Positions 6,884-64,000 of a stretch of DNA of 64,000 nucleotides are shown here, piece by piece. The notes beneath the pieces are model-generated. The model saw nothing but the letters and a program-made list of their open reading frames with translations, was not told the origin of the DNA and did no database searches. How positions within the stretch are numbered: the first letter of the stretch is position 1; each line of letters starts with the position of its first letter. The position numbers were made by a program, and so were the translations under genes. Origin of the DNA: Blasia pusilla (Eukaryota); NCBI GenBank assembly GCA_050084515.1, contig CM114271.1, positions 11,904,001 through 11,968,000 of the forward strand. Reading direction: 5' to 3'.

Positions 6884-6900
6884 GTGATAACTCCACAATT

Positions 6901-19100: not shown

Positions 19101-20141
19101 TGTCTTCGAATTGCATCGGTCATAGGATGAGTGTGGGAGCCAACATGAACTGCCAGCCTTGTATACTCTGACGTGGAGCCCAAGTCGTGGACAATGAAAA
19201 ATATGTATGCAGGACACGCTCCAACGCACAAGGGCAATGCTTGACAATGAGGACATCGATGGCCTCCCGGCGGTATGGTGGCACCGACCTCGTATGGAGT
19301 TTCTGCATTCTTGGGAGGGAATTGCGACGTATTGACTCGCCCGTTGCGCTCTAGATACCGGCATGCTGGACTTCTACACTCCAAGGCTCCCACGCATTGG
19401 CGGCGGGAGACAATCCACGGACCATCTGGAATGGAAGCACTGGTCCGTTGAAGCCTGCACCAACGATGACAATCGGACTTTTGTCCATATCCTTCAGCGT
19501 CCTCCATCCTTCTTTTGAGCGGGAGCGGCAAGTGGAGGCAACTCAAAAATGCAATTACCATCAAATGCGTGGGCGGCGACTTGTCGACAAGAATGTGCTT
19601 GAACATTTTCAAGCCGAGACGAAAGCAAACTAATGCCGATACTCGCAAGAGAACAGTAGGCGGACGAGAGGTCCCGATTGGTGTCCGCCAGATCCACGAG
19701 GTTGATAACATCCGAAATCTCTTGGGAAGAACAACATTATTCTGGCGCGTGGAAGTTGGAGTCGGCCGGATCTCGCAGAGCTTGGAGTTGCAAACGTAGA
19801 GCTCGGAGCACTAGGAAATTCTAGACCGTCTACTTGGGAAACAGACGATTTAAGTCGAGGGGCGGGCCGTAAACTCTATATTGACCATTTGCTAGAGGTA
19901 GGAGATTCCATACTTTACGGTCTAAGGTCCTTTGGCTGGACCGTCTCACCTATTATGTCTTCCGTGCCGTCCACCCTAACATCTTTGGATACAAAGATGG
20001 TTCCAATTGGAGAAGAAATCGAAGCATGAGAAAATTTTCATCCTTTGCTATGAAAGACTCACGAGCTTGGGGTCGAATGATTTCCGATTGAGGAAGGGCC
20101 GCCAGATGACTGCCACAAGTGAGCTTAACATAATTATCCAT
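16193..20141 (-). pseudogene. Transposase: GCM-like zinc/WRKY-fold N-terminus, MULE-type DDE core, C-terminal SWIM finger; one intron (17693-18130)
   Basis: C-VGALE-C-x4-C...C-x2-C...C...HVGSHTHP. WVSFD, FMAD and DAFHWQQ, then after splicing (CAG|GTGAGT...TTTCAG|GGA) PNTSGAESVH. SWIM CSCDDF...PCKH. Contains premature stops and a frameshift. Confidence 0.8.
17750..18020. repeat. Palindrome cluster in the transposase intron
   Basis: About 6 copies, e.g. perfect 13-bp arms TGCAACCCGTCGG-AAC-CCGACGGGTTGCA at 17850-17878. Confidence 0.85.
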
Positions 20142-20192
20142 TCCAAGAGGATTCCAACGGGAGGAGACTGAGAATGAGAATGAGAAATTTTA

Positions 20193-20199
20193 ATTTATA
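20193..20199 (-). promoter_or_regulatory. Putative TATA box of the transposase
   Basis: TATAAAT ~50-85 bp upstream of ATGGATAATTATG, conserved in all three copies (also 51808-51814 and 61704-61710). Confidence 0.5.
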
Positions 20200-20339
20200 G
20201 TGAATAGGAAAATAGATACTCTTGACAGATTTTTACTGACAAGATGAATTCGGTGGGTGACATTGTCTGACACAATGGATCCAATTCTGTAACACATTCA
20301 ATTATGTTGCAATATGTTACCGGATTTGGGAAGCAGAGG

Positions 20340-21020
20340 GTTGCGCATCACACTTGGAACCCGTCGGAGTCCTGGTAACTCAAAACTTACCCGAAGCTAA
20401 CCAAAGCATGCAACCCGTCGGCTTCGGACGGGTTGCACGCTTTTGCCAAACATTGTCAAAGCGAGCAACCGGTCGCTCTCCGACGAGTTGCTCGGATACC
20501 GCTCCTTCTTGCCTGAAGATGCCAGAGGCGTGCAAACCATTTGTTCCCGACGAGTTCCGCGGGTGCCTCACCTATTTGCCCAAAGACGGCGAGGCGTGCA
20601 ACCCGTCGCCCTCCAACGGGTTGCGCAAGGGCCTCGCCTTGTGGTGCAGCCAGCCGGACTCCGACGACTTGCACGGGAAGCCCGCGTTCTTAACCCTTGA
20701 TGAGGGAAGCGTGCAACCCAACGGTCTCCGACGGATTGCCCAAGATACGTCCCGTTCCCGTCCTAAACACGGCGGAGGCGCGCAACATGTCGGTCTCTGA
20801 CGGGTTGCGCGGGTACCTCGCGTTCTTTTCCGAAGATGACAGAGGCTCAACCCGTCGGTCTCCGACGGGTTGCTCGCCCATGTGGCGACGTACCCACGAT
20901 GGCGGAGGCGCGCAACCTGTCGAACTCCGACGCGTTGCCATTTTTCACGTCCGGACTTCCGTAACCTCCGGCACGTCGCCGTCGAAAGAACGACGGGACC
21001 CAACGGTCAGTCCAACGGCT
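20340..21020. repeat. Palindrome array in the divergent intergenic region of copy 1
   Basis: About 11 degenerate CAACCCGTCGG-N3-CCGACGGGTTG copies at roughly 55-70 bp spacing. Confidence 0.8.
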
Positions 21021-21027
21021 AGAAAAG

Positions 21028-21035
21028 TATAAATA
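21028..21035 (+). promoter_or_regulatory. Putative TATA box of the cargo gene
   Basis: TATAAATA immediately after the palindrome array, ~290 bp upstream of the MTRKK start. Confidence 0.4.
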
Positions 21036-22529
21036 GGGCAGAAATCGCTCATTTCCGGTTTCTCATTTTGCGATCTTCATTCCTCACTCTCCCGCTTTGG
21101 TGAGCCGATCGATCTGAAGGCGTTTCACACGGCGACACATCGCGAGTCGATAGGAGGAATGAGAGCGAGGCAGTTCGATCGAGCAATGAGACAGTTTGGT
21201 GAACGATCGCGGGACGATTCGAGCTACCCATCAAGGCGATTCAAGCTCCCCATCTCGACATCAGTAAGGCGACTGATCAAGGGATTCGTCGTGGACATAG
21301 ATGGAGGCATTTCCGAAAAAAATGACGAGGAAAAAATCACAAGCCAACAAGTCTGGGAGCTTCACTCCGAAGTCCATTAGGACTCCTGCGTCAGCATCTT
21401 TTGGGCCTCGTTCGGCGAATGAAATTAGGCAGTAGGAAATCAAGGAGGGGGAAAGGGAAGCGGAGATGCACAACCAAGTGCTTCTTGCGAGACGTGTTCA
21501 AGAGGCGCTAGATAAACAGAACGCAGAGGCTGAGACGTCGCGTCGCAGGCCTTGAAGAAAAGGATCGCCGACGAAAAGAGAGAAAAGAAGCGTCTGGACG
21601 CGTCGGTGAGGAGGGCAGAATTGGCTAAAGCGAGGAGGGAAAAAGAAATAGCCATTGACGATAGCCTTGCCCGTCCAACCGCAAGTGTTGAGATGCGGGA
21701 AATGTCCCCCATGAAGGCCGGGGACACAATCAACATAGTGGAAACGCGAGAAGTTGAAATCGATGACGACGAGGTCATGAGGACCGCCAGCGTGGAGATG
21801 GTGGACATGGCCGAAGAAACCGGAGAGCGGTCATTCTCGACTCCAAGCCCGGCGGAGGACATCGACCTCTATCGGATCGACGAGTTCCCAGTCGATTTGC
21901 CAACTTCTATCTCAGACAAGTTAGCTGGTCAAGAAACCGACCCCATTTTCGAGCGGGTAAGAGAGGATCTGGGTTTTCTCAATTATGTGAATTGCAATTC
22001 ATTGGGAATTGATGTAGCTTATTCATCTTGTCCCGGTTCGACGGGTGGTAAAGCGGATGGCACTCATGGAGGGCCTGGCGCGCCGAGGATTCCACTCTAC
22101 CGATTGTGGACAATGGAATGCGTCCGTGAAATTCAGATCCGCGAGGACATCGAAAGCTTAAACAATCGGCGGCAACAAAGACATCCACGTCGATGCTTTC
22201 CTCCCTTCTATGTTCAGCCTTACGACGAGCATGGAACCCAAGCTCTGGTTACGGAGGAGGACTTGGAAAAGCTCGACACATTCTGGAGGATGCGAGACCA
22301 GGATTTCAGAAGGCAAGTTAAGGGCACGGAATTCAGTGGATGAGGAATCGCATTTCTTCATCTGGGATGGAAATCAGGAGTTCATGGCGTGGACCAAGTT
22401 TTGGAGGAGCGGCCCAACTCATTGGAGGCACATTTTGCGTGAAGGAGTGGTCCTTCACCCATTCCCTCATCACATGGCGGCGGTGGAGATGGCAATGCAT
22501 GCCATGAACACGTGAGTATCTTTAACACT

Positions 22530-23250
22530 TACGCAACTCGTCGGGGCGGTTGTTGGGATGCTTTAACACTTACGCCTTTCGTCGGACTCCGGCGAGTTGC
22601 TCGATTGATGAATGGGTTAGGTTTGTTTTGCGAAAGCAACTCGTCGGACTCGGCGGGTTGCTTGACTCCATGCTTTTTTGGATGTTTTTTTAAGAATGCA
22701 ACTCGTCGGACTCCAACGAGTTGTTCGATTGACCACAGATTTAATTAGTTTTTGGCCCAAAGCAAACCGTCAAAGTCCGACGGGTTGCTCGACTCGCCGC
22801 CTTGTCAGGATGTTTTTTGAAGAATGCAACTCGTCGGACTCGACGAGTTGTTCGAAATAACTCGAGTTTAGAAGGTTTTTCCCCAAAGCAACCCGTCGAG
22901 TCCGACGGGTTGCTTGCCTCGAAACTATTTTTGGCCGAAATCAACCCGTCAGAGTCCGACGGGTTGCATTCGGAAGTTGGTTCCCCAAATTTTGCGTCAA
23001 ATTGCAAGTTTACATTCAATTGCGCAACCTGTCGGATTCCGACGGGTTGCTATGTTCACGTTAGTATGTTCAGTTGCACAACCCGTCGGAGTCCAACGGG
23101 TTGAAACCAGGCATTAGCAAATCTGAATGCAATCCGTCGGACTCTGACGGGTTGCATCATTTAGCTCGTTGCTAGAATCCGACCTTGAGCTGTGACGACC
23201 CGTCGGAGTCCGACGGGTTGCAGGAACCCATGTAATTTCCTGACGGGTTG
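22530..23250. repeat. Palindrome array in cargo-gene intron 1 (62-64 bp period in part)
   Basis: Units start at 22637, 22699, 22763, 22827 and 22889, with further copies to ~23250. Confidence 0.85.
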
Positions 23251-25394
23251 AGTTTGGATGTGCAGGATTGTATCGGAGGGGAATGTCACCCACCACTGGA
23301 TCTAGGACTGCGATCGGGTGAGGCCCACAATTTCAAGGATACTGGTAATTTTCCCCACGTACCTGCATTCTTACACTGGACGAGGTACCTGAAGACCATC
23401 TGTTGGGCAGCTTTTAGTCGAACGGAATCGGCCGTCTGCTCCTGTAGATCTCGCTTCTTCTTCGCTTGATCCCATTTGTTCCCCTCTACTTCTTCGTCAA
23501 GCTCTGCCTGAGGGAGGACGCAAACCTTGAACATGGTCTTGAATCCTGGGTTTTTGGTTGGCTTGTCCCGGATGTCGTTGAGCCAAACCTCGAAATCTCC
23601 AGAACTTTCAAGGTTTGCTTCATCCGGGATGGGCTCTAATCTTCTGAGCTCCACTTGCAGACCGTCCAACACGGACTTCCTGATAACCCGCAACCCGTCC
23701 CAGAACGACCATTCGCGTAGCCAGTGGGAGATCAATGGATCAGACACACCCGGAGGATGGTGTGTCGCCCTCTTCTGGGCCTCTGAGCCCTCAAGACTGA
23801 TTTTCATCAATCGGATCCTCCTAAACTCGCTTATGCCGGACAACGCAAACCGATGCACGCGATCCAAGGACACTTTCTCCCCAATCCGACCATGCGGATC
23901 TTCATCCCTTTTCCGCTGGCGCTTGATAATCGCCTTCAGCTCCTTGTAGAACTCCGGACCAAGTTCGGGGTTGAGAATGCTGATGTATCGCTGCATCTTG
24001 CTCGCCGTGTATTTTGTTGCTGCAGCTTGGATGAATTTGGCGCGCTCAGACGCAGATACCCTCTCCCTCCGCTCCAGCTCCAGTGCAGCGCTTTTCTTCG
24101 CGGCCTGTATCTTCGACCAACAAAGGATGGTTACGGGTGCATCTTGGGAAATAAACTTATTTGCCCAAGTTTTCTTTTTAATCTGAGCACCCTTTGCAAG
24201 CATCTGATTGACAAGGGCATCGCCCAAGAACCCCCTGTACTCTCCCGGGTGCGTCGTAAGCACCTTCGCCGCCGGATGCAGAGACATTCTCCATGTACGA
24301 TATGGAGATGGGGCAGCACATGTTTGATTGGGAGGTGGAGAATTGCCCCATTTGGCTCGACTTCAACGACCCTGAAGACATCACCAATAAGGATTTACGA
24401 GTGCTTCATGATGCAGTGGCCTCAGGACAAGACGACATCCCCAATTTCGTCCAGCCTGAAGACTTCTTTGGAGGAGATGCAGAGGAGCAGGCCCACAAGA
24501 CAGCTGAGTTGGCTTCCAAGGTCCGCACAGCCAAAGACAAATCCACAGCGGGTCTCAAAGGCAAGGCGAGGGGAGGGAAAAATTCAGAGGCCGAGTCTTC
24601 CCAAAGAGAGGCTGAAGATTCAAGGCCAGAGGCGGAATCGTCGAGCGGCGGGAGAGAGGGTCGGACCAAGTCTCGGCAAAAAAAAAAACCCCACCGAGTG
24701 TGAGGTCATAGAGACCCCGACAAGCCGTCCGCAGACTCGGGAGAAGCGGAAGCGAGAGGTGCCAGGGTTGTCCCAAGGAGAATACAGTCCATCATCCTTG
24801 GGAAGACACATAAAAACAACGACCCAGACAAGCGTCCTCCTTTAGTTCACTCCTTTACTGGATGAGCTGAAGAGCTTCAGTTCTCAAGCGTCGACTCCAG
24901 CCATCGATAAATTGACAACGTTGGGACGGAAGCTCCAACGAAATGGGCACGCTGCCTGGACGGTGAATGGAGTGGTCGAAGAGGTTGCGGTGGATCTCTT
25001 GATCGCTGATCTGCCCTCGGGGTTGCGACTTTGGGGCAAGAATCCGTCGGACGAGGTACTTGAGTGGAATGTGCCACTCTCTTATGACCAGATTGCGCTA
25101 TTGTTCTCCTTTGCAGACGCCAATCTAAGTGACAGGGGCTGCTTCTTGGTGTTGACTGGAGGGAGCGAGGATGAGCTCTTCAACCTCCAGTGCGTCAAGA
25201 GGTCGCTAAAGTGGAGGACGGCGCAATCATGGATCATAAAAAATGAGTACCCACTCCGATCCGCAACGAGTCAGATTCGGATAAGGCTCAATTCCTGTAC
25301 TATAATTTCAATTATATTTTAATGATGTGTATAATGAGTGTTCATCTCCGTCGAGTGATTATAATGAGTGTCAATCTCCATTTTTTTTGTCCGT

Positions 25395-25760
25395 GAGCAA
25401 TCCGTCGGAAGGCGGGGTTCTTGGCTTAGAGCAGCCCATGCTCGGTGAGCAACCGTCGATTTCCGGACGGGTTGCATCTTTCCACATACAGGGAAAACCG
25501 CGGTGTACTTGCAACTGTGGGAACCCGGCGGGTTGCGCTTGCTTTTGGTTTTTCCTGTGTTTCGAAAAAGCCGCAACCCGTCGATAGCGGCGGGTTGCTC
25601 GGCGAGCATGGGCTGCTCTAGGCAAGCAACCCGTCGCCTTCCGACGGGTTGCTCACGGACAAAAACAACGGAGCCCGACGGGTTGTTTTAGTCACGACCA
25701 ACCCGCCGGAAGGCGACGGGTTGGTCGGGACAAAACAACCCGCCGGACTCCGGCTGAGTT
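25395..25760. repeat. Palindrome array in cargo-gene intron 2
   Basis: About 8 copies, e.g. GCAACCCGTCGCCTTCCGACGGGTTGC near 25626. Confidence 0.8.
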
Positions 25761-28130
25761 GATCCAAAGTCGTAATGGTGAAAATGTTCTCAAGCCGACT
25801 TCTTTAGTTCTTGACATTGTTTCCAACGTGTTGATTTCTGAGATGGACACTCCTACGTCTTTCGCCCGTTCGCCCGAGCACAATTTCGGTGTTCAAGATC
25901 CAGGATCTGTGGATCCATGCTCGATGGGTACACTTAGATAGTTTGTACAATTCCCGGAATTTACATGCAAGACAAGATACCCTTACTTCTGGGAGGAAGG
26001 GAAAAGTTTCAGCCCGATGCAACGCTCATCGAGCTCTGCTCAAGGCCGGGTGACTTGGTGTTCGACTTAGTGGGACTTTCGAGGGCAAGTATCAAAGGCG
26101 CTGGCAGAGTGGCAGAACATTCTGCCTCGAGGAAGGCAGAAACTGTTTGACCTTTGCAAGGAGGCAAAGGCATAATACGAAAGGCTCGTTGGGGCGTACA
26201 ACTCTCCACCGAAGCTGAGAGCTCCGGTTCCAGACCCACCCTTGGTAGTGACTCCATCGTCACTTCCAACGATTCCAAAAATCGGGAGGGCAAGGCCGAA
26301 AGTAATTTTGCAAGAGCTCTCGGACGATGACGAGTGAGTTCAAAGAACTCAAGGACCCAACTTGACTGCAGCGTTTGGAGTAGGAAGCTATTTGATGATG
26401 AGGCAAAAGATTTCATAGAATAGATCAAATGTACAGTTCCGAGCTTTTTTCGGATGATATAAAGGAGATGATTTTTTCGAACGATGGTGGTGCTTGTAAA
26501 AATTTGCTTAACAATTTTTTTCTTTTCGAATGCGATCGTCTATGAACTCCGCGGACTTCTATTTTGCAAACCGTCGGATTTCTCCTGCTTGCAAGTTTTC
26601 ACTTTTTGACGACAGCACCTTTTTACCACTTCCAGGCAACCTGTCGGATTCCGACAAGTTGCCTGATCGGACTCTTTCCCTGTTGGTCCAACTTAAGAGG
26701 TAGTCTGGCAGGCTTCTTCCCTTGGCACCTTCCCCTCAACTCGTAAAGGCAGGCGTAGGCTTCTTTTCTTCTCTCAGACGTGTTGGATTCCTACTACCTG
26801 TGCGATTGCCATAATGGTATTACCGGGGACAGAGCACATATTGATACTGGATGGGTGTCACATTGCAGAGCGTACAAGGTATACTGCCGAGGAAGGCGGT
26901 GGGACTCGAATCAGGTAACATGGGACCGTTATGGTGTACCTAGGGGGGGGCCAAGGCTCTCGAATTCGCCAACATTTTCGATCCCCGTCTATAATCAGCC
27001 AAAGGAGCCACTTGTATCCCAGGACATTCCTTTGGTATTGTCACCAAGGATAGTTAGGAGTAAATTTGTAGATGACGAGGCTGAAGAAATCATAGACTAG
27101 GTCAAATGTACATTTCCAAAGTTCCTTCAGAGGTAATAAAGGACGAGTTTTTTCAACCCATAATGGTGTTTGTAAAAGTTTGCTCGAATATTTTTTTGGA
27201 CTTGTGGATTGTGTTCTTTTAGCTACTCAGAATTACAATTCTGCAACCCGTATGATTTCGACGGGTTGCAACTTTTTGCTTTTTGCCCACTGTAACTTTT
27301 TTTTTTACCATTTCGGGCAAGTCGCCGATTCCGATAGGTTGACTGCTTGAGTGATCGGACTCTATCCCGGTGAGACCAACTTCTGACGCATTGTGCGGCC
27401 CTCTTAACTTTTGGCTCGTTCCCCTATATTCGCCAAACCAGTTGTAGGCTTCTTTTCTTGTCTAAGATGTGCATGATTCCTTCTACCTGTCGGATTGCCA
27501 TTCCGGATTCCCAACCTGTTAGATCGTCGTGGGTGCAGGGTGGAAGAAAATCACTTCTAAAAATCTTTCCTTTCTTATGGTGAGCTTTCTTACGGGTTGG
27601 GAGGGGTGCAGCTTCTCGGTTTCTCAGCCTTAGGATCTGATGTGTTCACATTTCACAAAGTTGGTCTTGAGCAGACACCATTCATAACCAAGTTATGAAT
27701 AGATATGGGGCAATTACGGGGCAATTTAGGGGAGGCCATGATGCAAGCAACAATCCCTGCAAAAAGAAAGGTTGGCATCCGGGTGGTCCTCCAACAAAAA
27801 TACCAAGGGCACTGCTTTTTCTTGACCGAGACAGGGAATGTTAAGAAACTTAGGCTCACATGGAGAGTGATGGAAAAATGTTTGTAGTGGTCTTATGATG
27901 TCTCCTTTTTTCTCACCCCCATGAAAGAGAAGGTTTTTTTAGGGCCAAATGTGGACCACTAAATACTCTCTTTTAAAGATTTCATGAATTTGAAAGCAAA
28001 CAAAAATTTCAAATATGTCAAAAATTTTGAAGAGAGGAGGCGGATTTGGCCCTTTTTTTTTAAGAGAGACTCTCCTCTCTTCCTCTCTTCCTCTCCTCTC
28101 TTACTCTCTCCTGCCAGAATACCAGCCCCC

Positions 28131-46077: not shown

Positions 46078-46287
<210 letters not shown>

Positions 46288-51372: not shown

Positions 51373-53012
51373 CAAGTAGACAAACTCCAAAAATTTGCAA
51401 CCAGATGGATTTTGAGGGTTTACAACCTGTTGGACTCCGACGGGTTACAACTTGGCGGATTCAGAAAATTTGCAAGTAGACGGATTCCGAGGGTTTGCAA
51501 TCTGTCAAACTCGGAAGAGCTGCAACTTTTCGGAGTATGAAAATTTGCAACCATAAGGATTCCAAAAATTTTGCAACCTGTCAGACTCTGACGGGTTGCA
51601 AGTAGTCGGAATCTGACGGGTTGAACTAACCCCATGAATGGCCAAATTGAGGCAATCGGGATAGTCAAAAAAATTCAATGTGTTCAATCCCAAGGGTAAT
51701 TTATTTGTAATGCACTTTCCTTGGTCCACACAACGACAGAAAATCTCACCTATCAACCAACAGCTTGTCAGACGATTTATGTTAGAAGTTTAACGATCAC
51801 TATTCTCTATAAATTAAACATTCTCATTCTTATTCTTATTCTCCTCCCAGTGGAATCATCGGTGTTGACATCTTCAAATGGATAATTATGTGAAACTCAT
51901 ATGTGGCAATCATCTAGCGGCCCTTCCTCAATAAAAAAATAATTCGACTGCAAGCTCGTGATTCTTATGTACAAGTGGATGAAAATTTCCCCTCACTCCA
52001 ATTTCTTCTCCAAATTGGAACAATTTTCATTTCCAAGGATGAACGTCATAGGTGAGATAGTCCAAACAGGGATTGGAGACTCCAAAGTATGGAATCTACT
52101 ACCTTACAGAAATGAACAATGTAGAGTGTATGGCTTGCCTCTAAAGCCTTTTGTTTCTCAAGTCAACGGTCTACAATTTCCTAGTGCACCGAGCTCCACG
52201 TTTGCCACTCCTACCTTTGGAGATCTAGCATCGACTCCAACATCACACTTTAGTAACAATGATGTACTTCCTGAAGAGATTCCGGATGTTCAACCTCACA
52301 GGATCTGTTGGACACCAACCGGACCCTGCCTTTGCCTACTCATTCTTGTTGCAAGTTTTGGACAATAGTTTGTTGTCCTCTCTGCCCTTGAAAATGTTCA
52401 AGCACATTCTTTTCGACGAGTTTCCGCCCACATATGATGGAAATTGCATTTTTGAGTTTCCTCCACTTGCTGGTCCTGCTCGGAAGAAAGATGGATGCTT
52501 GAAGGGTATGGACATAAAGTTTGACTGTCATCAATGGTGCAGGCTACAACAAACTAGTGCTTCAATTCCATGTGGTCCTTCGATTGTTTCTCGCGGCTAA
52601 TGCGTTGGAGCCCTTGAGTGTAGAAGTCTTGGCTGCCCGTTTCTAGAGCACAATGGGCGAGTCAGTACCACGCAATTCCCCCCCAAAGAATGCAAAAACT
52701 CCATATGAGGTTGGTGTTGCCATACCGCCATGAGGCCATCAATTTCCTCATTGTCATGCCTCCCCTTTCTACGTTTGAGCGTGTCGAACATACATTTTTT
52801 CTATTGTGCATGACTATAGTTCTACGTCTGAGTACACCAAGTTGGCACTTCATGTTGGGTCCCACACTCATCCTCTTGTCAGTGCAATTCAGAGACACAT
52901 CAAGGAGGATGTGGCAAAGAAAGAGGCTGAGGTATATAGAAATTCTCCAGGATCAAAGCGCGGAGTGATCAAATTGACAACATCACAAATTTGTGAACGA
53001 CTTCTTGGAATC
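51373..53012 (+). mobile_element. Mutator-like element copy 3 (fragment: palindromes, promoter and 5' transposase 51878-53012), bounded by the CACTA end on the left and copy 2 on the right
   Basis: ATGGATAATTATGTG at 51878; homologous to 61792-62950 (GCM-like cysteines, HVGSHTHP). Breaks at CTTGGAATC|GGGGGCTGG. Confidence 0.85.
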
Positions 53013-55951
53013 GGGGGCTGGTATTCTGGCAGGAGAAAGGAAGAGAGGAGAGTCTCTCTTAAAAAAAAAGGGCCAAATCCGCCTCCTCTCTTCAAAACTT
53101 TTTGACATATTTGAATTTTTTGTTTGCTTTCAAATTCATGAAATCTTTAGAAGATAGTAGGTAGTGGTCCACATTCGGGCCTAAAGAAACCTCCTTTTTC
53201 CAAGGGGCGAAAAAAAAATAGACATCATAAGACCACTACAAACATTTTTCCATCACTCTCCATGTGAGCCTAAGTTTCTTAACATTGCCTGTCTCGGTCT
53301 ACAATAAGCAGTGCCCATGGGTATTTTTGTTGGAGGACCACCCGAATGCGCATCGGTACGATGCCAACCTCTCTTTTTGCAGGGATTGTTGCCTGCATCA
53401 TGGCCTCCCCTGAATTGCCTCATAACCAACTTTCTGTTGGTTATGAATGGTGTCTGCTCAAGACCAACTTTGTGAAATGTGAACACATGAGACGATAATT
53501 GAACCAAAAGATTGTTAGCTTTCTGGAGTAAAGAGGAACTGATGTCCCTTCATTTAGATCCTAAATCTGAGAAACTGAGAAGCTGCACCCCTCCCAACCC
53601 GTCAAAATTTTACAGGTTGCAACTCTTGCAACCCGTCGGAATGAGATGGCTTGCACACCTTGCAAGAAATCTCACCATAAGAAAGGAAAGATTTTGAGAA
53701 GTGATTCCATTCCACCCTACACCCACGAAAATTCAACAGGTTGGGAATCCAAAATGGCAATCCGACAGGTAGTAGGAATCCTGCACGTCTTAGACAAGAA
53801 AAGAAGCCTACAATTGATTTGACGAATCTAGGGGAACGTGCCAAAAGTGAAGAAGCCGGCCACAATGCCTCAGAAGTTGGTCTCATAGGAAAAGAGTCTG
53901 ATCAAACAAACAGCCAACCTGTCGGAATCGGACAGTTTGCCTGGAAATGGTTAAAAAGTTGTAGTGGTCAAAATTTGCAAAGTTGCAACCCGTCGGAATC
54001 AGACGGGTTGCAAAATAAACATTGTGACTAGCTAGACGAACACCATGGAAAAGTCCAAAAAAATTATTCAACAGACTTTTACAAACACCATTATCGTTTG
54101 AAAAAATCTTGTCCTTTATTACATCCGAAGGAAGCTTGGAAATGTACATTTGATCTAGTCTATGATTTCTTGAGCCTCGTCATCCACAAATCTACTCCTA
54201 ACTCTCCTAGGTTCCTGTACAAAAGGAAAGTCCTGGGATACAAGTGGCTCCTCTAGCCGATTGTAGACGGGGATCAAAAATGTTGGCGAATTCGAGAGCC
54301 TTGGCCCCCCTCTAGGTACACCATAATGGTCCCATGTAACCTGATTTGAGTCCCACCGCCTTCCTCGGCACTATATCTTGTAAGCTCTGCAAGATATACA
54401 AGATGACACCCATCCAGTATCAATATGTGCTCAGTCTTTGGAAACACCATCATGGCAATCCGACAGGTAGTTGGAATCCAACACGTCTTAGAGAAGAGAA
54501 GAAGCCTACGACTTGTTTGACGATACTAGGGGAAGGAGCCAAAGTGAGGAAGCCCACCAGAATGCCTCTAAAGTTGGACTAATAGGGAAAGAGTCTGATC
54601 ACTCACGCAACCAACCTGTCGGAATCCGACAAGTTGCTTGGAATTGGTTAAAAAAGTGTAGTGGTCAAAAAGTGAAAAGTTGCAACCCATGGGAATCCGA
54701 CGGGTTGCATAATAAATTGTCGGAGTACATAGACGATCACAATTGATGAGACCAAAAAAGATATTCATCACTGTTCGAAAAAATCTTGTGCTTTATTACA
54801 TCCAAAGGGAGCTCGGAACTGTACATTTGAGATATTCTATGAATTCTTCTGCCTCGTCATCAAATAAATCCCCACTCCAAAATACTGAAGTCAAGTTGGG
54901 TCCTTGAGTTTTTTGAACTCACTCGTCATCGTCCGAGAGCTCTTCGAGAATTACTGTGGGTCTTGCCCTCCCGATTTTTGGAATTGTGGGAAGTGACGAT
55001 GATGTCACTACCAATGGTGGGTCTGGAACCGGAGCTCTCGACTTCGGAGGAGAGTTGTATGCCCCAACTAGCCTGCCGTAATCTGCCTTTGCCTCTTTGC
55101 AAAGGTCAAACATTTCCTGCCTTCCCTCAAGGCAGAGAATGTTCCTGCCACTCTGCCAGGCGCCTCTCATACTCGCCCCTGAAAGGCCCACTAAGTCGAA
55201 CACCAAGTTACCCGGCCTTGAGCAGAACTCGATGAGCGTTTGCATCAGGGCTGGCGACTTTTCCCTTCCTCCAAGTAAGGGGGTACCGTCTCGCATGTAA
55301 ATTCCCGGGGAGGGGAGGGGGGGAGGAATTGTATAAACTATCTAAGCTGTACCCATCGGAGCATGGATCCACTGGATCGAGGATCTGAAACACTTGGAAG
55401 TTGTGCTCGGGCCTTACAAAATAGTAGACAAAGGAGTGGTCCATGTGTAAAGAAGCAGGTTGGAAAAAATATCAGCACAAGAAAGAGCTAATTTCAGTCT
55501 GCAACAAGAAAGGCATACTATCAGAATGCTGACAACGTGCAACTCGTTCCCAAAGAACTTCGCTTAACCCGAGAGAACTTAGTTATAATCCTAACATTGG
55601 AGCAACCTGTCGGAGTCCGACGGGTTGTTTTATAAGTGTTAGTGAAATTTTTTGCCATGAGCAACCCGTCGGAAGGCTACAGGTTGTTGGATTAGAGCAA
55701 CCCGTCGCTTTCAGACGGGTTGCATCATTCCAGAAACACAAGGAAAAAGCATAATCATTTGCAACCCGTCGGGTTCCGACGGGTTGCATTCACCCAATGG
55801 AGACTTGCGGTAAATTTGCAACCCGTCGCTTTCAGACGGATTGCACCATCAAAGTCTCTAGCTCAAAAAATCCAACGGGTTGCATGCAGAGATGCAACCC
55901 GTCGGAGAAAGAAAATTTGGATATGGATTTAGAGCCCTTACCCAGATTTGA

Positions 55952-56346
55952 TGTGAGAAAAGTAGAAAGTGACTAATCACTGAAATCTTTACAAAACTTA
56001 GAGATACAAAGTGGCCTAGTCCGTCCGTGCGCTCACAGAAGAGCTTCGATGGAACCTAAACTGGGAGATTACTCGACATACGAGAATGCGCTACCGCTGC
56101 GGCTCCCAACTATTTGACTACTCGGAAAAACTAGGGTTTTACCTATTTTTCTTTGTTTCTATTAATAGAAAATTTTTGCCTAACAGGTTTATTTAAACCT
56201 AGTAACGCTACTCTGTAAACCACCTACGTCATATTACTATGACTCCTTCGACGTCTAAGTTGGAACCATCGATCTAGGCTTCTCCTCATACAAGGGGGCC
56301 GATCAAATCAATGGTGCTCAGAGGAGTGGATGTTGAGAATCCAATA
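55952..56346. mobile_element. Probable solo LTR (395 bp) inserted in cargo gene copy 2
   Basis: Absent from copy 1. Flanked by 5-bp TTTGA repeats (55947-55951, 56347-56351); TG...TA ends (probably mutated TG...CA). Confidence 0.65.
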
Positions 56347-58429
56347 TTTGACTCGTCGCGGATCAGAGTGGGTACTCGTTCTTGATGACCCACGATTACG
56401 CCGTCCTCCACTTCAACGACCTCTTGACGCACTGCAGATTGAAGAGCTCATCCTCGCTCCCTCCAATAAAAACTAAGAAACAACCCCTATCACTAAGATA
56501 AGCATTTGCAAAGGAAAACAGGAGCGCGATTTGGTCATAAGAAAGAGGGACATTCCAGTCTGGGACCCCGTCGGACGGATTCTCGTCCCACAAGCGCAAC
56601 CCCAAGGGAAAATCAGCGTTAAGGAGATCCACCGCCACCTCTTCGACCTCCCCATAGACCGTCCAGGGAGCGTGCCCGTTTTGTTGAAGCTTCCATCCCA
56701 GCGTTGTCAATTTCTTGATGGCGGGTGTTGACGCTTGGGAATTGAAACTTTTCAGCTCATCCAGAAGATTCGTGGAGTGAATGATGACGCTTGTCCGGGT
56801 CGTTGTTTCTCTATGTCTTCCCAAGGATGATGGAGTGTATTCCACATCTTGGTCTGCTCCCTAGGACAACCCTGGCGCCTCTCGCTTCCGCTTCTCTCGA
56901 GTCTGCGGTCGGCTTGTTGGGGTCTCTATTACCTCAGACTCTGGTGGAGTTTTTTTTGCGGAGGACCTGGTTTGACCCTCTCTCCCCGCTCGCCCGGACG
57001 ATTCCGGCTCTCGCCTTGAATTTTTAGCCTCTCTTTGGTAAGACTCGGCCTCGGAATTCTTCGATCCCCTCGCCTTGGCTTTGAGACCCGTTGTAGATTT
57101 GTCCTTGGCGATGACAACTTTGGACACCAACTCCGCTGTCTCGAGGGCTTGCTCCTCCGCATCTCCTTCAAAAAAGTCTTCAGGCTGCATGAAATTGGGG
57201 ATGTCATCCCTACCTGCGGCCTCTGCATCATAGAGCAGGCGTAGATCTTTCTCGGTTATGTCCTCAAGGTCGTTGAAGTCCAGCCAGATCGGAAATTCTC
57301 CACCTCCCAATCGGACATGCTTTGAGCCATCTCCATGTCGTACATGGAAAATGTCTCTCCATCAGGCGAAGAAGCCCACAATTTGCAGGCTGCAGGTATT
57401 TTTCGCCATGTACCTACATTCTTACAATGGACAAGGTACCTGAACACCATGTGTTGGGCAGCTCTTAGTCGAGATGCATCGGCCGCCTGCTCCTGAAGAT
57501 CTCGCTTCTTCTTTGCGAAATCCCTTTTCTTCGCCTCTATTTCTTCATCAAGGTCTGCCTGAGGGAGGATGCGATCCTTGAACATCGTCCTGAAACTTGG
57601 GTTTTTTATGGGCTTGTCCCACATGTCATCCAGCCAAAGTTCAAAATCTTCAGCACTCTCCAGGTTTGCTTCCTTCGGAATTGGCTTTATTCTTTTCAGT
57701 TCCGCTTGGAGATCCACGAGCATGGACTTCCGAGAAGCCGCAACGCATCCCAAAATGACCATTCTCGGAGCCAGTGGGAGATCACTGGATCAGAGACACC
57801 TGAAGGATGGTGTGCCGCCCTCTTTTGGGCCTCTCTGCCCTCGAGACTCATTTTCATCAGTCGGATTCTCCAAAATTCCAAAATTCCAAAATTCCAGACA
57901 AGGCAAATCAATGCACGTAATCAAGAGACACTTTCTCCCCAATCCGACCCTCCGGATCTTCATCCCTCTTCCTTTGGCGCTTGATCATCGCCTTCAGCTC
58001 CTTGTAGAAATTGGGGCCAAGTTCAGGGTTGAGAATGGCGATGTAGCGCTGCATCCTGCTTGCCGTGTACTTCATAGTTGTAGATACTGCAGCTTGGATG
58101 AACTTAGCACGCTCAGACACAGACACTTTCTCCCTCCGCTCCAACTCCAATGCAGCGCTCTTCTTGGCGGCTTGTATCTTCGACCAGCAAAGGATTGTCA
58201 CGGCTGCATCTTGGGAAATAAATGTATTTGCCCAAGTCTTTTTTCTTATTTGAGCACCCTTTGCCAGCATCTCATTTACAAGGGCGTCGCCCAAGAACCC
58301 CTTGTACTCTGCCAGGTGCGTCATTAGCACTTTCTTCACCCGATCGTAATCCTGGATCTAGTGATGGGTGATATTCCCCTCCGATACAATCTTGCACATC
58401 CAAACTCAATATAAGAAATTTTGCAAGCT

Positions 58430-59070
58430 ACATGGGTTCTTGCAACCCGTCAGACTCCGACAGGTCGTCACAGCTCATGGTTGGAATGGTAGCTACGAGC
58501 TAAATTTTGCAACCCATTGGAGTCCGATGTGTGATTGCCTGGTTTCAACTCGTCAGACTCCGACGGGTTGTCAGATAATTTGTATTTAGAGAGTGGTCTC
58601 CGCGAGAAAAGTGAACATATCAACCCGTCTGAGTCCGACATGTTGCACAATTTCAATTAAAGCTGCAATTTGACGCCAAAAATCAAGCTCCCATACTCTC
58701 ATCACCTTCATGTGTCGGCGAATGCAACCTGTCCGACTCCGACGAGTTGCTTTGGGCCAAAAACATCCTAAACCAGTGGTCAGTCAAGCAACTCGTCGGA
58801 TTCCGACAAGTTGCTTTCTTCCAAAAATATCCAAAAATAGCGGCCAATCGAGCAACTCGTTGGACTCCGATGAGTTGCTTTTGGCCAAAAACATCCTAAA
58901 CGAGTGGTCAGTCAAACAACTCGTGGGACTCCGACGAGTTTCTTTCGGCCAAAAACATCCTAAACCATTGGTCAGTCGAACAACTCGTCGGACTCCAACG
59001 AGTTGCTTTTGGCCAAAAACATCCCAAAAATAGTGGCGAGTCAAACAACTTGTCGGAGTCCGACGGTTTG
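58430..59070. repeat. Palindrome array with 64-bp period in intron 1 of copy 2
   Basis: Units start at 58725, 58789, 58853, 58917, 58981 and ~59046. Confidence 0.88.
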
Positions 59071-60669
59071 CAGCAAGAGGAAACTTATGTGTTCATGGCA
59101 TGCATGGCCATCTTCACCATCGCCATGTGATGAGGGTATGGATGTAGCACGATTGCCTTCACGCAAAAATGCGCCTCCAATGAGTTTGGGTGCTTCTCTG
59201 CAAACTGGGTCCATGCCATGAACCTGTGGTTTCCATCATAGATGAAGAAATACACGTTCTGCATCCAGCTGAATTCTGTCCCCTCAATCGCCCTTCTGAA
59301 TTCCTGATCTCTCATCCTCCAGAATATGTCGAGCGCTTCCAAGTCCTCCTCTGTAACCAGCGCTTGGGTTCCATGTTCATCGTAAGGCTGAACATAGAAC
59401 GGAGGGAAGCTGTTGACGTAGGATGTTGTCGCTGCCGATTGTTTTAGCTTCGTAATATCCTTGTCATACTGAATTTTGCGGACGTACTCCATTTTTCGCA
59501 ATCGGAAAAGTGGAATTTTTGGGGCGTTCTGGCCCTCCATCAGTGCCATCTGCTTTACCACCTGTCACAACGGGGACAAGGTCAATAAGTTACACTGAAT
59601 TGCCAATGAATTGCAACATGGGCTTTCACATAACTCACAGAACAAAGATCGTATCTTACCCGCTCGAAGATTGGGTCGGTGTCTTGGCCAGCCAACTGCT
59701 CTGGGACAGTAGCTAGCAAGTCCACTCGAAACTCGTCGATCCGATAGAGGTCGATTTCTTCCGCCGGGCTTAAAGACAAGGAAGACCGCTCTCCTGCTTC
59801 TTCAGCGATGTCCACCATCTCCACGCTCGCGGTCCTCATGACCTCATCATCCGTCACTTGAACTTCGGCCGTTTCCGCAATATTGATTTTGTCCCCAGAC
59901 TTCATCGGGGACATTTCCTGCATCTCAATACTTTCGGTTGGACGGGTCGGGCTTTCTTCAATGGCAATCGCTTTTTCCCTCCGAGCTTTGCCAATTCTGC
60001 TCTTCTCATCGACCCATCCAGACGCTTCTTTTCACGCTTTTCGTCGGCGATCCTTTTCTTCAAGGCGTGCGATGCCTCAGCCTCTGCGTCCTAGTTTTCG
60101 AGCACCTCCTTTACACGTTTTGCAAAAAGCTCTTGCTTGTGCATCTTCGCTTCCCTTTCCTGCTCCTCAATTTCTTGCTGCCTTTTCTCATTGGCCGAAC
60201 AAGGCCCTGGAGATGGTGACACAGGAGTCCTTATGGACTTGGGAGTGAAGTTCCCAGCCTTGTTTGCTTGATATTTTTTCCAAGTCATTGTTCCCGAAAA
60301 TGCCTCCTATGGTCAAGGAAATTGCTCTATGTGCATGATGAGTTGCCTCAAGGAGTCGCCTTGATGAGTCGCCTTGATGATGTCGCAATGAGTTACCTTG
60401 ATGAGTAGCTCAAATCGTCTCGCGATCGTTTCTCTCGAATCGTCTCGCGATCGTTCGCTCGAATCGTCTCGCAATGAGTCACTGTGTAAAGCGCCCCTTG
60501 GTATCTGGTCAGCTGCTGTGGGCGGAAGAGCAATTGAGATCGCGAAACAAAAAACCAAAACTGAGCAAACCCTCGTCTATTTCTACTTTTCGAGCTGTTG
60601 GGCTAACCGTTGGGTCGCATCGTCGTTCCGACAACGACGTGTTGGCCGTTATGGAAGTCTGGACGTGAA

Positions 60670-61610
60670 AAACACCAACCCAACGGCTCCGACAGGTTGC
60701 ACGCTTCCCGTGGGTTCCAAGCATCTGTCCTCCTAGGCAACCCGTCGGAGACCAACAGGTTGCATGCCTCCGCCGTCTTTGGACAAGAACGCGAGGTACC
60801 CACGCAACCTGTCGGAGACCGGTGGGTTGCACGCTTCCCTCGTCTTGGGATAACAAGGCGGGCTACCCGCGCAACTCGTCGGAGGCCAACAGGTTGCACG
60901 CTTCCTTCATGTAAGCAGTACAAGGCGAGGCATTTGCGCAACCCGTCTGAGGTCGACGGGTTGTGCGCCTTCGCCATCTTCGGGCAAGAAGGCGCGGCAC
61001 CCGTACAACTCGTCGAAGACGGACGGGTTGCACGCTTCCTTCATGTAAGCGTTACAAGGTGAGGCACTTGCGCAACCCGTCTGAGGCCGACGGGTTGCCC
61101 GCCTCCGCCGTCTTTGGGCAAGAAGGCGCGGCACCCGCGCAACTCGTCGGAGACCGACGGGTTGCACGCTTCCTTCATGTTAGCATTACAAGGTGAGGCA
61201 CTTGCGCAACCCGTCCAAAGCCGACGGGTTGCACGCTTCGCTTATCTTGGGGTAATAGGTGAGGTACAAGGGCAACCCATCGGTTAGCGACAGGTTGCAC
61301 GCTTTTCTATCCCTCGGGTAACAATTTGACAACGTATAGTTCGGAGGCAACCCATTGCAATCTGACGGGTCACATGATCTACCCTGAGTTGGACAATCCC
61401 GCAAAAGTCCCCAACGATTGGTTTCCTCACCATATGCAAGCGATATCTCGTGTTTAATGCTAGCAAAATCGACTCAAAAGACCATTGGTCGGCTAGAAGG
61501 GGGTACCAACCCAACGGACTCCGACGGGTTCCATCAAATAGAAGTGGGTGCTTCGCAACCAACGTCTCTGATTCTCAAATTCTGCAACCCACCTGACTCT
61601 GACAGGTTGC
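60670..61610. repeat. Palindrome array in the divergent intergenic region of copy 2 (includes ~134-bp two-palindrome tandem units)
   Basis: CAACCCGTC...GACGGGTTG units repeating at ~60939, 61073 and 61207. Confidence 0.85.
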
Positions 61611-61791
61611 AACAGAATTGAATCCATTGTGTCAAACATTCTCACCTACCAAACTTCATCTTGTCAGTCAAATTCTGTCAGGAGAATCTGAGTCCCTATT
61701 CACTATAAATTAAACATTCTCATTCTCATACCCATTCCCATTTTTATCATCATTCTTATTCTCAGTCTCCTCCCGGTGGAATATTTTGGGA

Positions 61792-63813
61792 ATGGATAAT
61801 TATGTGAAGCTCACTTGTGGCAATCATCTAGCGGCCCTTCCTCAATGAGAAATCATTCGACCGCAAGCTCGTGAGTCTTTCATAGCAGAGGATGAAAATT
61901 TTCTCTTAGTTCGATTTCTTCTCCAAATTGGAACCATCTTTGTATCCAAGGATGTTAGGGTGGACGGTACGGAGGACATAATAGGTGAGACAGTCCAACC
62001 AGTGATTGCAGACCGTAAAGTATGGAATCTCCTACCTCTAGCAAATGGTCAATACAGAGTTTACAACTTGTCCCTGAATTCCTCTGTTTCCCAAGTAGAC
62101 GGTCGAGAATTTCCTAGTTCATCGAGCTCTACGTTTGCAACTCCTACCTCAGTAGATCCGACATCGACTCCAACTTCACACACTCGTAACAATGTTGTAC
62201 TTCCTGAAGACATTCCGGATGTCGTCAACCTCAGTGGATCTGTCGGACACCAACCGGGCCCTCTGTCCGCCTACTCATTCCTCTTGCGAGTATCAGGCAA
62301 TAGTTTGCTATCGTCTCTGGTCTTGAAAATGTTCAAGCACATTCTTGTCGACGAGCTGCTGCCCACGTATGATGGTAATTGCATTTTTGAGTTGCCTCCA
62401 CTTGCTGCTCCTGCTCAAAAGAAAGATGGAGAACGCTTGAAGGGTATGGACAGAAAGTCTAATTGTCATCGATGGTGCAGGCTTCAACGAACTAGTGCTT
62501 CAATTCCAGATGGTCCTTGGATTGTCTCCCGCCGCCAATGCGTTGGAGCCTTGGAGTGTAGAAGTACAACATGCCCGTATCTAGAGCGCAACGGGCGGGT
62601 CAATACGTCGCAATTCCCCCCAAGAATGCAGAAACTGCATATGAGGTCAGTGCCACCATACCGTCGAGAGGCCATCAATGTCCTCATTGTCAAGCATCCC
62701 CTTTCTACGTTGGAGCGTGTCCTGCATACATATTTTTCATTGTCCATGACTTGGGCTCCACGTCAGAGTTCACAAGGCTGGAAGTTCATGTTGGCTCCCA
62801 CACTCATCCTGTGACCGATGCAATTTAGAGACACATCAAGGAGGATGTGACGAAGAAAGTGGTCGAGGTCCACAAAGACTCTCCGGGTTCAAAGCCCGGA
62901 GTGATCAAGCTAAAAAAAACATCACAAATTTGTGAAAAATTTGCTTGGAATCCCTGGACAGGGCGAGATCACGGCTGCTGAGGAGAAACAACTATGGGAA
63001 AATCTCGCATTTATCGCTGATCCTAAATGCTTCCGGAATTGGCTGCGTCAAATACGGGTATTGGATGGAAAGACGGCCGAAATGGATGCCATTGCCAGAA
63101 TCAAGGCCAACTCCATATTTCCATTCATTCAGAGATGGCAGTTCATGGGCCAAGGAGGCAAAGGATCCAAGGCCTATGTCTTCAAAATGTCAACCACAGG
63201 TCCGTCGAGTGGCCTCGATCTTATAGATCGAATGAGGGAAGGGGAAGATCTTTACGACAGCTGGGTAAGCTTTGATATTTGCTACAGAGTGTTGAACGGA
63301 TGGTTGACAATGGGTGCTCACATTTATGACCATGTGGAGAAGGGACTCAAAATTATATTTGTCTGTGAAGTAAAAGCAAAAGACGTTGGTAGTTTGAAGA
63401 TGTGTTGGGTACTCTTTTTGGAGGTGGTGAAGGAAAACAAAAGGCCACCTCTGGAAATTTATGGGTTCATGGCGGACAATGCACAACCTGGGTGGATTGC
63501 TATCAGGGAAGTGTTCTGGGGTGGAGAGGTTCAACCCGAGAGGGAAAGTTCAGATGCTTTCCATTGGCAACAGTCTGTGACCCGATACACCAAATCTTGC
63601 ATCAAGGAGAATAAGAGGACAGAGCATGTCACTCTACTCCAACGCTGCAAGGACAGCAAAACCTTGAAACAGGCCATGGAATGCCAAGAAGAACTTCATG
63701 GGTGGTGGAGGAAGCATGCGATTGAGGGGAAGTACAAAGAGTTGTGCTCTTGGATGAGTTGGTGGACTGTACGTATGAGACAATGGGGAAACTTCATGCG
63801 GCAACTGAGTTGA
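61792..63813 (+). pseudogene. Transposase copy 2, exon 1 (GCM-like domain and MULE DDE core); remainder beyond the window
   Basis: MDNYVKL start in frame with ORF 61960-62814. ORF 62932-63813 has WVSFD, FMADNAQ and DAFHWQQ. Confidence 0.82.
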
Positions 63814-64000
63814 CTATTTTGTCTTGTCAAGCTCACGCTGAGAATTTTTTGAAAAGTTCCAGCTCAAGTTGAGAAGTGTGGGCACTATTGGGATTTCAAA
63901 CCGAAGAAACCAAATAACTTGTTGGATGCGACGGGTCGCCCGAGTGTGCAACCCGTCGGAAACAGACGGGTTGCCCGAGTGTGCAATCCCTGGGAAATGG

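What the first reader, a model, noticed from the sequence alone, without database searches (positions are those of the whole stretch)
58430..59070. Phased arrays of a CG-rich ~29-bp palindrome restricted to non-coding DNA
Seen: consensus TGCAACCCGTCGG-N3-CCGACGGGTTGCA. It occurs with a 64-bp period at 58725-59070, 62-64 bp at 22637-22915 and ~134-bp dimers at ~60939-61240. The palindrome is kept while the DNA between units differs among clusters and copies, and I see none in exons. Inference: selection maintains it as a binding site for a dimeric protein (transposase GCM-like domain or ParB-like cargo). A ~63-64 bp spacing is about 6 helical turns, putting sites on one face of the DNA. In introns it would also form RNA hairpins.
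Basis: partly seen in the sequence, partly recalled or inferred. Interest (0 to 1): 0.72.

Follow-up and report, generated by a model that had tools for sequence, protein, structure and literature searches.

The report
Palindrome arrays in a liverwort transposon
A large, very abundant plant transposon keeps dozens of copies of one 27-letter mirror-image DNA motif in its introns and promoter, probably as docking sites for a protein it encodes itself, one candidate being an unusual protein built from bacterial-type parts.

Summary
The palindrome is real: 71 sites in the window against 0.09 by chance, and 1,334 exact sites genome-wide. Its core is GCAACCCGTCGGA-N-TCCGACGGGTTGC. It belongs to a 12-13 kb Mutator-superfamily transposon with thousands of copies, 9-10 bp target duplications and a GCM+DDE+SWIM transposase. 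A divergent second gene encodes a ParB-like domain and a beta-class DNA-methyltransferase-like domain with altered catalytic motifs. The 64-bp array is intron 2 of that gene.

No site overlaps an exon (0 of 37 in the consensus, 0 of 414 in single copies). The motif persists across subfamilies about 50% identical at fourfold sites, whose intron spacers no longer align. It is the only interior shared with an amplified 680-bp MITE. Selection on a DNA site is well supported.

Helical phasing is not supported: 67 bp is the commonest spacing and distinct spacings show no phase. RNA hairpin selection is not supported either.

Best reading: binding sites for an element-encoded dimer that licenses activity, like VANC or TnpA. 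The binder is untested, with gene 2 slightly favoured over the transposase. Mutation rates show little protection from methylation. Verdict: new variant of a known kind.

The parts
58441..59072 (.). The reported array: 10 palindromes, the last six at 64-65 bp, inside intron 2 (about 58392-59088) of gene 2 of copy B
   Evidence: the homologous intron is spliced in 4 RNA reads; both splice sites are mutated in this copy
53013..64000 (+). Copy B of the Mutator-like element. It continues to G000:C1:11970298 (13.3 kb), has a 9-bp target duplication (8 of 9 alike), and sits inside the transposase gene of copy C. 35 sites lie in the window. Decayed copy.
54919..60288 (-). Gene 2 of copy B: exon 1 about 60288-59660; exon 2 (ParB-like) 59561-59089; exon 3 about 58391-56346 (helical region, then the N-half of the MTase-like domain); exon 4 about 55393-54919 (C-half of the MTase-like domain)
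   Evidence: the splice model gives 1197 aa with no internal stop in the family consensus
61792..63804 (+). Transposase exon 1 of copy B (GCM-like DNA-binding domain and DDE core), frameshifted; the SWIM exon lies beyond the window
60736..61611 (.).
55601..55921 (.). Array in intron 3 of gene 2 (6 sites)
53593..54709 (.). Sites downstream of gene 2 (6 sites, partly in a local duplication)
63947..64000 (.). Start of the array in the transposase intron
53013..53110 (+). Left terminus with the GA-rich repeat (GAAGAGAG) that also occurs, inverted, at the right end: a second motif class, distinct from the palindrome
15775..28130 (-). Copy A of the same element (inverted, 30 sites, internal inversion at 23320-24267), inserted in a Ty3-type retroelement; 9-bp target duplication (7 of 9 alike)
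22573..23222 (.). Intron-2 array of copy A, homologous to the reported array
51380..53012 (+). Copy C: promoter sites (6, some at 25-bp overlap) and the start of a transposase gene interrupted by copy B; left limit approximate

Best explanation
The palindromes are cis-acting DNA sites of a Mutator-like transposon, bound by a dimer that the element encodes, most likely the gene-2 protein (ParB-like domain plus catalytically altered methyltransferase fold). They multiply by local tandem duplication wherever coding does not forbid it: promoter, introns, downstream region. Dense binding marks family members as 'self' and licenses them for transcription and transposition, as VANC and TnpA do in Arabidopsis. 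The MITE parasitises the system by keeping the two ends plus about five sites. SHOWN: element anatomy, exon exclusion, retention against spacer turnover, retention in the MITE, low-level strand-correct spliced RNA. INFERRED: binding, identity of the binder, and the licensing effect. That some element-encoded protein binds is put at about 0.75; that it is gene 2, about 0.45.
For: (1) 0 of 37, 0 of 414 and 0 of 81 in exons. (2) Three diverged subfamily copies are 0.44-0.52 identical at fourfold sites; their masked intron-2 spacers score 24-34 against shuffled maxima of 25-31, yet each holds 11-14 sites at about 87% core identity. A further copy alignable only at its terminus has the same motif. 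(3) Conservation is uneven along the arm and mostly one-sided, as for a protein site. (4) 20 of 20 MITE loci hold 3-6 sites, and the interior matches the long element only at the sites; 36 of 40 scored hits span the MITE. The one ends-only, site-free derivative is single among 40 scored hits. (5) For gene 2 as binder: its domains are 0.71-0.90 conserved in the diverged copies; 10 of 10 inspected distant relatives with the same kind of transposase have a short intron at the same position with no array; 0 of 80 relative loci show gene 2 or this motif; a separate terminal motif is available for the transposase. (6) Precedent: PMC5735166, bioRxiv 10.64898/2026.08.24.746577.
Against: No binding or methylome data. 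C-to-T decay at the sites is nearly that of exons (CG 4.8% against 5.5%, p 0.12; CHG 5.0% against 6.9%, nominal p 0.003 with non-independent copies), so lasting protection from methylation is slight. The motif is the same in all subfamilies, unlike fast-turning VANC targets. No sequence-specific DNA-binding domain was identified in gene 2, and its ParB call is weak (Pfam DUF1015 E 0.021; no PDB, PHROG or phage match). Gene 2 may be missed in distant relatives through divergence or short contigs. The site-free derivative is a single case. Site identity is partly circular, because sites are called by likeness to the motif.
Confidence: 0.45

Rival explanations
1. The transposase itself binds the sites through two GCM-like domains of a dimer, using them as internal enhancers for loading, synapsis or self-activation. 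Gene 2 does something else.
For: GCM fold confirmed (1odh, probability 1.00). The MITE keeps the sites although it has no gene to express. AtMu1 transposase alone binds, demethylates and activates its copies (bioRxiv 10.64898/2026.08.24.746577, section 7). The half-site shares ACCCG with the animal GCM1 site (recalled, not from a call). A few relative loci carry other palindromic arrays with a TCGG-N2-CCGA core (L092, L129, L143/L148).
Against: Most sites lie 0.6-6 kb from the ends, whereas AtMu1 transposase peaks at the terminal repeats. 10 of 10 relatives lack intron arrays. The TCGG-N2-CCGA core is only weakly enriched in 53 relative loci (10 against 3-5 in shuffles), and those arrays are not shown to lie inside the related elements.
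Confidence: 0.3
2. The sites recruit a host transcription or chromatin factor, for example in the germ line, and the element has accumulated them as enhancers.
For: Sites cluster in the divergent promoter and introns; both genes are transcribed at low level.
Against: 23 of 23 sampled exact sites are in the family, and about 1.07 exact sites per long copy is enough to account for the 1,334 in the genome, leaving little room for host targets. 13-bp arms are long for plant factors (own knowledge). The sample came only from the first 10 Mb of contig C1.
Confidence: 0.1
3. Neutral by-product: a palindromic monomer spread by tandem duplication and conversion, tolerated only outside exons, with no function.
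For: Arrays are ordinary tandem repeats with homologous spacers. 25-bp overlapping units occur. Exon exclusion is expected of any repeat. Sites decay at about the exon rate after insertion.
Against: One sequence is held across six separate clusters with unrelated spacers and across subfamilies near 50% neutral identity. It is kept in an otherwise unrelated AT-rich MITE interior. Arm-to-arm correction would let clusters drift in a compensated way, which is seen at one core position only.
Confidence: 0.1
4. The units act as RNA hairpins or DNA cruciforms (small-RNA source, splicing signal or structural mark).
For: Perfect inverted repeats in transcribed introns; position 7 is coupled between arms (46 complementary double changes among 523 units).
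Against: 10 of 13 pairs show no coupling. Wobble-keeping changes are not consistently favoured: 139 against 120 in gene-2 introns, 18 against 47 in the transposase intron, 101 against 62 in the promoter. A fixed sequence, not just pairing, is conserved. No Rfam match. Small RNAs were not examined.
Confidence: 0.05

Closest known systems
VANDAL transposons and VANC anti-silencing proteins (Arabidopsis; PMC5735166, PMC10398659)
   Same: Mutator-related element with an accessory gene and a family-specific motif clustered in introns, intergenic and terminal non-coding regions, built by tandem duplication; the motif is also carried by a non-VANDAL element (AT9TSD1).
   Different: The motif here is a 27-bp palindrome, not an 8-9 bp same-orientation word. 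It is stable across subfamilies. Gene 2 has no DUF1985/DUF287. Demethylation is not shown.
Spm TnpA and AtMu1 transposase as self-activators (bioRxiv 10.64898/2026.08.24.746577)
   Same: An element-encoded protein binds clustered cognate motifs and activates its family in trans, including non-autonomous copies.
   Different: Those motifs lie at the termini; here most are internal. TnpA derives from a transposase; gene 2 resembles prokaryotic proteins.
MULE transposases with WRKY-GCM1 fold and SWIM (PMC1702500); ISCth4 structure
   Same: DNA-binding domain + DDE core + SWIM; 9-10 bp target duplication; fold match to ISCth4 and GCM.
   Different: No Pfam MULE match; ends are mostly dissimilar apart from a GA-rich tract; large second gene.
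Bacterial ParB/parS (recalled) and phage ParB-methyltransferase loci (PMC4738411)
   Same: A ParB-like domain, a beta-class MTase-like domain most like phage enzymes, and repeated palindromes in cis.
   Different: No ParA gene; palindrome unlike parS (recalled consensus); HTH not identified; both MTase motifs altered; spliced eukaryotic gene.
Marchantia DN4MT1 (bioRxiv 10.1101/2021.02.12.428880)
   Same: Beta-class amino-methyltransferase of prokaryotic type in a liverwort.
   Different: DN4MT1 has TSPPY and is an active host enzyme; here D[LF]PS and DLVGLSG, fused to a ParB-like domain on a transposon. Relationship not tested.

Membership tests
Mutator (MULE) superfamily | 9-11 bp target-site duplication | tested here: met
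   9-10 bp in long copies with both ends; 15 of 20 MITE loci at 0.89 identity or more
Mutator (MULE) superfamily | DDE transposase of IS256/Mutator fold with C/D(2)H motif | tested here: met
   Top three fold hits are ISCth4 transposase, E 6e-4 to 8e-4; conserved D, D and DAFH in alignments; candidate E (AESVH) in exon 2 read by eye against relatives
Mutator (MULE) superfamily | N-terminal WRKY-GCM1 domain, C-terminal SWIM | tested here: met
   GCM 1odh probability 1.00 but E 4e-3; SWIM E 0.036, under cut-off
Mutator (MULE) superfamily | Long terminal inverted repeats | tested here: inconclusive
   Ends share only a GA-rich tract of about 30 bp and terminal G/C; non-TIR MULEs exist (recalled)
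VANDAL/VANC | VANC domains DUF1985/DUF287 | tested here: not met
   No such Pfam match on ORFs covering the four gene-2 exons
VANDAL/VANC | Motif clustered in non-coding tandem repeats of the family | tested here: met
VANDAL/VANC | Short motif in one orientation, turning over between related families | tested here: not met
   27-bp palindrome unchanged across subfamilies; turnover across species inconclusive
VANDAL/VANC | Protein binds the motif and removes methylation | not testable with these tools
   Indirect only: CG decay 4.8% against 5.5% in exons
ParABS partition system | ParB/Srx N-terminal domain | tested here: inconclusive
   DGNH[RK] kept in 4 of 4 diverged copies that cover it; Atlas 0.95-0.96 to unnamed clusters, 0.95 to one with ParB_N in 11% of members; DUF1015 E 0.021; no PDB match
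ParABS partition system | ParA ATPase partner | tested here: not met
   Only two genes in the element
ParABS partition system | HTH that reads the palindrome; CTP clamp | not tested
Active beta-class N4/N6 DNA methyltransferase | Motif order IV then I | tested here: met
   PF01555 C-half E 1.4e-4, up to 30.7 bits in the genome; M.RsrI E 0.004; N-half is a lead only, Atlas 0.86-0.88
Active beta-class N4/N6 DNA methyltransferase | Catalytic [DNS]PP[YFW] and SAM-binding FxGxG motifs (recalled) | tested here: not met
   D[LF]P[SL] and DLVGLS[GW] in the consensus and 4 diverged copies; D-F-A-G-S-G at the aligned place in M.RsrI
MITE of this family | Short, non-coding, same ends and target duplication, multi-copy | tested here: met

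The most novel reading that the evidence does not exclude
A eukaryotic cut-and-paste transposon has adopted a prokaryote- or phage-derived ParB-methyltransferase fusion and evolved its own parS-like sites. The dimer, with a dead methyltransferase fold as reader (the motif centre is often GANTC, 220 of 523 units), loads at the palindromes and spreads or bridges along the element, shielding it from host silencing or bringing its ends together. This would be an anti-silencing or synapsis system of independent origin from VANC and TnpA, and could help explain an expansion to thousands of copies.
Probability: 0.25. Interest if true: 0.88.

Novelty: new variant of a known kind. Interest (0 to 1): 0.62.

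Why it matters
Sequence-specific self-licensing by transposons is documented in the papers read here for Arabidopsis (VANC, TnpA, AtMu1) and, by their account, maize TnpA. This element shows the same layout in what is probably a liverwort, with an unrelated accessory protein made of prokaryote-like domains and a long, well-defined target. If gene 2 is the binder, it is an independent invention of such a system and a programmable-looking protein-site pair for plant chromatin work. If the transposase is the binder, it gives a target for a transposase-borne GCM domain. Either way the 27-bp site, the two candidate proteins and the MITE make the question directly testable. The family is also a major genome component: about 2,500-3,900 first-look candidates per probe in 390 Mb.

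Tried and rejected
Helical phasing: rejected. The pooled Rayleigh test is significant, but its mean phase is 91 degrees off and it is driven by repeated 67 and 64; 36% of spacings lie within 1.5 bp of a whole turn against 29% expected. RNA hairpin or cruciform selection: not supported. Centromere-restricted element: rejected, the best transposase hits lie on many contigs, though density along C1 is uneven. Active N4/N6 methylase: motifs not met; no other PF01555-type gene among the 8 loci inspected of 27 matches. Homologues of gene 2: three protein searches found none (weak evidence by the tool's own note), nor did tblastn on 80 relative loci. A diverged transposase family in the same genome: the search with P0002 returned this family among its top hits. 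Single-sequence fold: unusable, pLDDT 35. The motif in prokaryote genomes and viral contigs: 0 exact matches. Motif read-through peptides in 154 homologous proteins: none. Arrays in distant relatives: several candidates, one a plain 72-bp satellite, none tied to element ends; inconclusive. Run search: no RNA holder listed; raw-read runs came by species label. Earlier findings: three look-ups, nothing. Resemblance to ARF, DREB or LFY sites: considered from memory only and dropped. No complex prediction was sent.

Full report
OBSERVATION. At up to 8 mismatches there are 71 sites against a mean of 0.09. All 71 fall in three related elements: 30 in copy A (15775-28130), 6 in copy C and 35 in copy B (from 53013). 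About 39 kb of other DNA has none. The exact 27-mer occurs 1,334 times in the 390-Mb genome, with 0 for the reversed control. Over 523 units the arms carry 1.29 bits per position and the flanks under 0.08. The centre is A-N-T at 74% each side, so the core is GCAACCCGTCGGA-N-TCCGACGGGTTGC. The arm figure is partly circular, since units were picked by likeness.

THE ELEMENT. Copies A and B align over their length in inverted orientation. B runs to 66298 in window numbering and interrupts the transposase gene of C. Sixteen further loci chosen from transposase hits gave elements of about 12-13 kb where both ends were found, with fixed ends and 9-10 bp target duplications; several are nested or truncated. 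First-look candidates number 3,934 for the transposase, 2,536 for the ParB-like exon and 2,908 for a probe holding the right end; these are not copy numbers. A model of the transposase built on a 101-sequence alignment (pLDDT 75) matches ISCth4 and the GCM domain. Named homologues among ten looked up are from Riccia sorocarpa (5) and Calypogeia fissa (2), so the host is probably a liverwort; this is inference.

GENE 2. A divergent four-exon gene gives 1,197 aa with no internal stop in the consensus of 12 copies, and the transposase gives 1,171 aa. Exon 2 has a DGNHR motif with weak ParB/Srx support (nothing). Exons 3-4 encode a beta-class methyltransferase-like domain closest to phage enzymes. 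Both catalytic motifs are altered, and the altered forms are kept in the diverged copies, which suggests a conserved non-catalytic role (inference). Reads from two RNA runs with a matching species label laid on one copy at low depth (274 and 386 reads, mostly 90-95% alike). They follow the expected strand for each gene. Four reads skip intron 2 at CT..AC, and 3 plus 7 reads cross the transposase intron. That these runs are of the window's own organism is not shown. Copies A and B are dead: an inversion in A, frameshifts and mutated splice sites in B.

WHERE THE SITES LIE. The 37 consensus sites form six groups: downstream of gene 2, intron 3, intron 2 (the reported array), the divergent promoter, the transposase intron, and one site about 220 bp from the right end. 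None touches an exon although 57% is coding; the same holds for 414 per-copy sites and 81 half-sites. Of 23 exact sites sampled from the first 10 Mb of C1, 21 lay in the long element, 1 in a diverged copy and 1 in a MITE. Long copies average 1.07 exact sites, enough to account for the genome total.

SELECTION. Three diverged copies are 0.51, 0.52 and 0.44 identical to the consensus at fourfold sites of exon 2 (39-51 sites each). Their intron-2 spacers, with sites removed, score 27, 34 and 24 against shuffled maxima of 31, 27 and 25; the closer copy B scores 150. Each still holds 11-14 sites with 3.2-3.5 mismatches of 26. A copy that aligns only at its terminus has the same motif. Against a simple story, spacers within an array are homologous and the 67-bp promoter unit keeps its spacer in all subfamilies.

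THE MITE. A 680-bp element has the same two ends, target duplications in 15 of 20 loci, and an AT-rich interior whose only likeness to the long element is five palindromes at 95, 42, 42 and 94 bp (19 of the 20 loci entered the consensus). 36 of 40 scored hits span it. Among 30 left ends sampled, one was a 181-bp ends-only derivative with no site; no second copy crossed its junction among 40 scored hits. This fits a cis role in mobility, on one negative case.

TESTS THAT FAILED. Phasing: of 149 spacings from six representatives, 67 is commonest (24), then 64 (11) and 75 (8). The 54 distinct values give R 0.05, p 0.87. The MITE spacings do happen to be near whole turns. Hairpins: coupling between arms at positions 1, 2 and 7 only, and no consistent wobble bias. 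Methylation shielding: C-to-T decay at CG is 4.8% in sites, 5.5% in exons and 6.2% in spacers; at CHG 5.0%, 6.9% and 7.9%. The direction fits mild protection or purifying selection, but the effect is small and the copies are not independent.

RELATIVES. A metagenome scan gave 80 loci (53 distinct) with best-segment identity mostly 23-38%. None shows gene 2 or this motif. In 10 of 10 inspected, the intron at the same position is short and has no array. Some loci carry other palindromic arrays, a few with a TCGG-N2-CCGA core, but enrichment is weak (10 against 3-5) and linkage to the element is not shown.

MECHANISM. An element-encoded dimer most likely binds the sites (about 0.75). I favour gene 2 (0.45) over the transposase (0.30) for three reasons: the arrays seem to come with the lineage that has gene 2, the ends offer the transposase another motif, and both gene-2 folds come from families that act on palindromic DNA as dimers (recalled). 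The GCM fold and the MITE argue for the transposase. Binding and its effect are inferred, not shown.

COMPARISON. It is a member of the Mutator superfamily. It works like VANDAL/VANC or Spm/TnpA in layout but is not a VANDAL: no VANC domains, and a long stable palindrome. It is not a ParABS system and not an active methylase by motif. Papers seen: PMC5735166 (abstract, section 7, second part of Results); PMC10398659 (passages); bioRxiv 10.64898/2026.08.24.746577 (abstract, sections 4 and 7); PMC1702500, PMC4738411 and bioRxiv 10.1101/2021.02.12.428880 (passages). Others were seen as search listings only, and no supplements were read. Nine literature searches listed no description of this element or of a ParB-methyltransferase gene on a plant MULE. 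The library lacks most subscription journals and repeat databases, so this is limited evidence of novelty.

VERDICT. A real and selected motif in an undescribed-looking, very abundant transposon with an unusual accessory gene; the phasing and hairpin ideas fall. New variant of a known kind, interest 0.62.

Noticed in passing
window 14793-15872 (-), with 11579-14630 and 27962-29914: The Ty3-type retroelement that copy A interrupts carries a C5 cytosine methyltransferase domain (PF00145, E 3e-10) in its polyprotein region and a PHD-like finger after the integrase; a second related element lies at about 6877-9710.
   Followed up: partly
window 53013-53110 and 15775-15842; consensus ends: A GA-rich motif (GAAGAGAG / CTCTCTTC, often after GGAAA) is repeated at both ends and kept in the MITE; candidate transposase site.
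   Followed up: partly
window 60736-61299; copies D1, D2, D4: The promoter array keeps an exact 67-bp period and a conserved spacer (CGCTTCCCTC...AAGGCGAGG) across subfamilies, which may hold a second site.
   Followed up: partly
L045:1217-1912; L055-L074: MITE of about 680 bp whose interior is itself a long inverted repeat around the five sites; one copy sits inside a long element (L219).
   Followed up: yes
G000:C1 about 8-11 Mb, 44-50 Mb and 55-57 Mb: Left ends of the element are much denser in these stretches than elsewhere on C1; many copies are nested in each other.
   Followed up: no
window 51396-51625; L162/L163; L168: Sites at 25-bp spacing that share the TGCA end, suggesting a 25-bp duplication unit.
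   Followed up: no
L092:20-790; L129:644-921; L143:1160-1285 and 6296-6444; L152:1631-2903: Other repeated palindromes near distant transposase relatives (TCTCGG-AA-CCGAGA, AACTTTCGG-NN-CCGAAAGTT, GGGTACTTTC-N6-GAAAGTACCC); link to the elements not shown.
   Followed up: partly
L136:14256-19200; L140:12134-14840: A 72-bp satellite of more than 60 units downstream of a transposase relative.
   Followed up: no
window 4834-6673 (-): Decayed ORFs with a weak DUF4216 match (E 6e-4), probably a CACTA-type transposase remnant split by the retroelement.
   Followed up: no
window 46080-46284: A perfect (GA)102 microsatellite.
   Followed up: no
L161:8769-9964 in RNA runs X4 and X5: 19 reads skip 1,194 bases with 19 other letters between, perhaps a deleted copy that is transcribed.
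   Followed up: no
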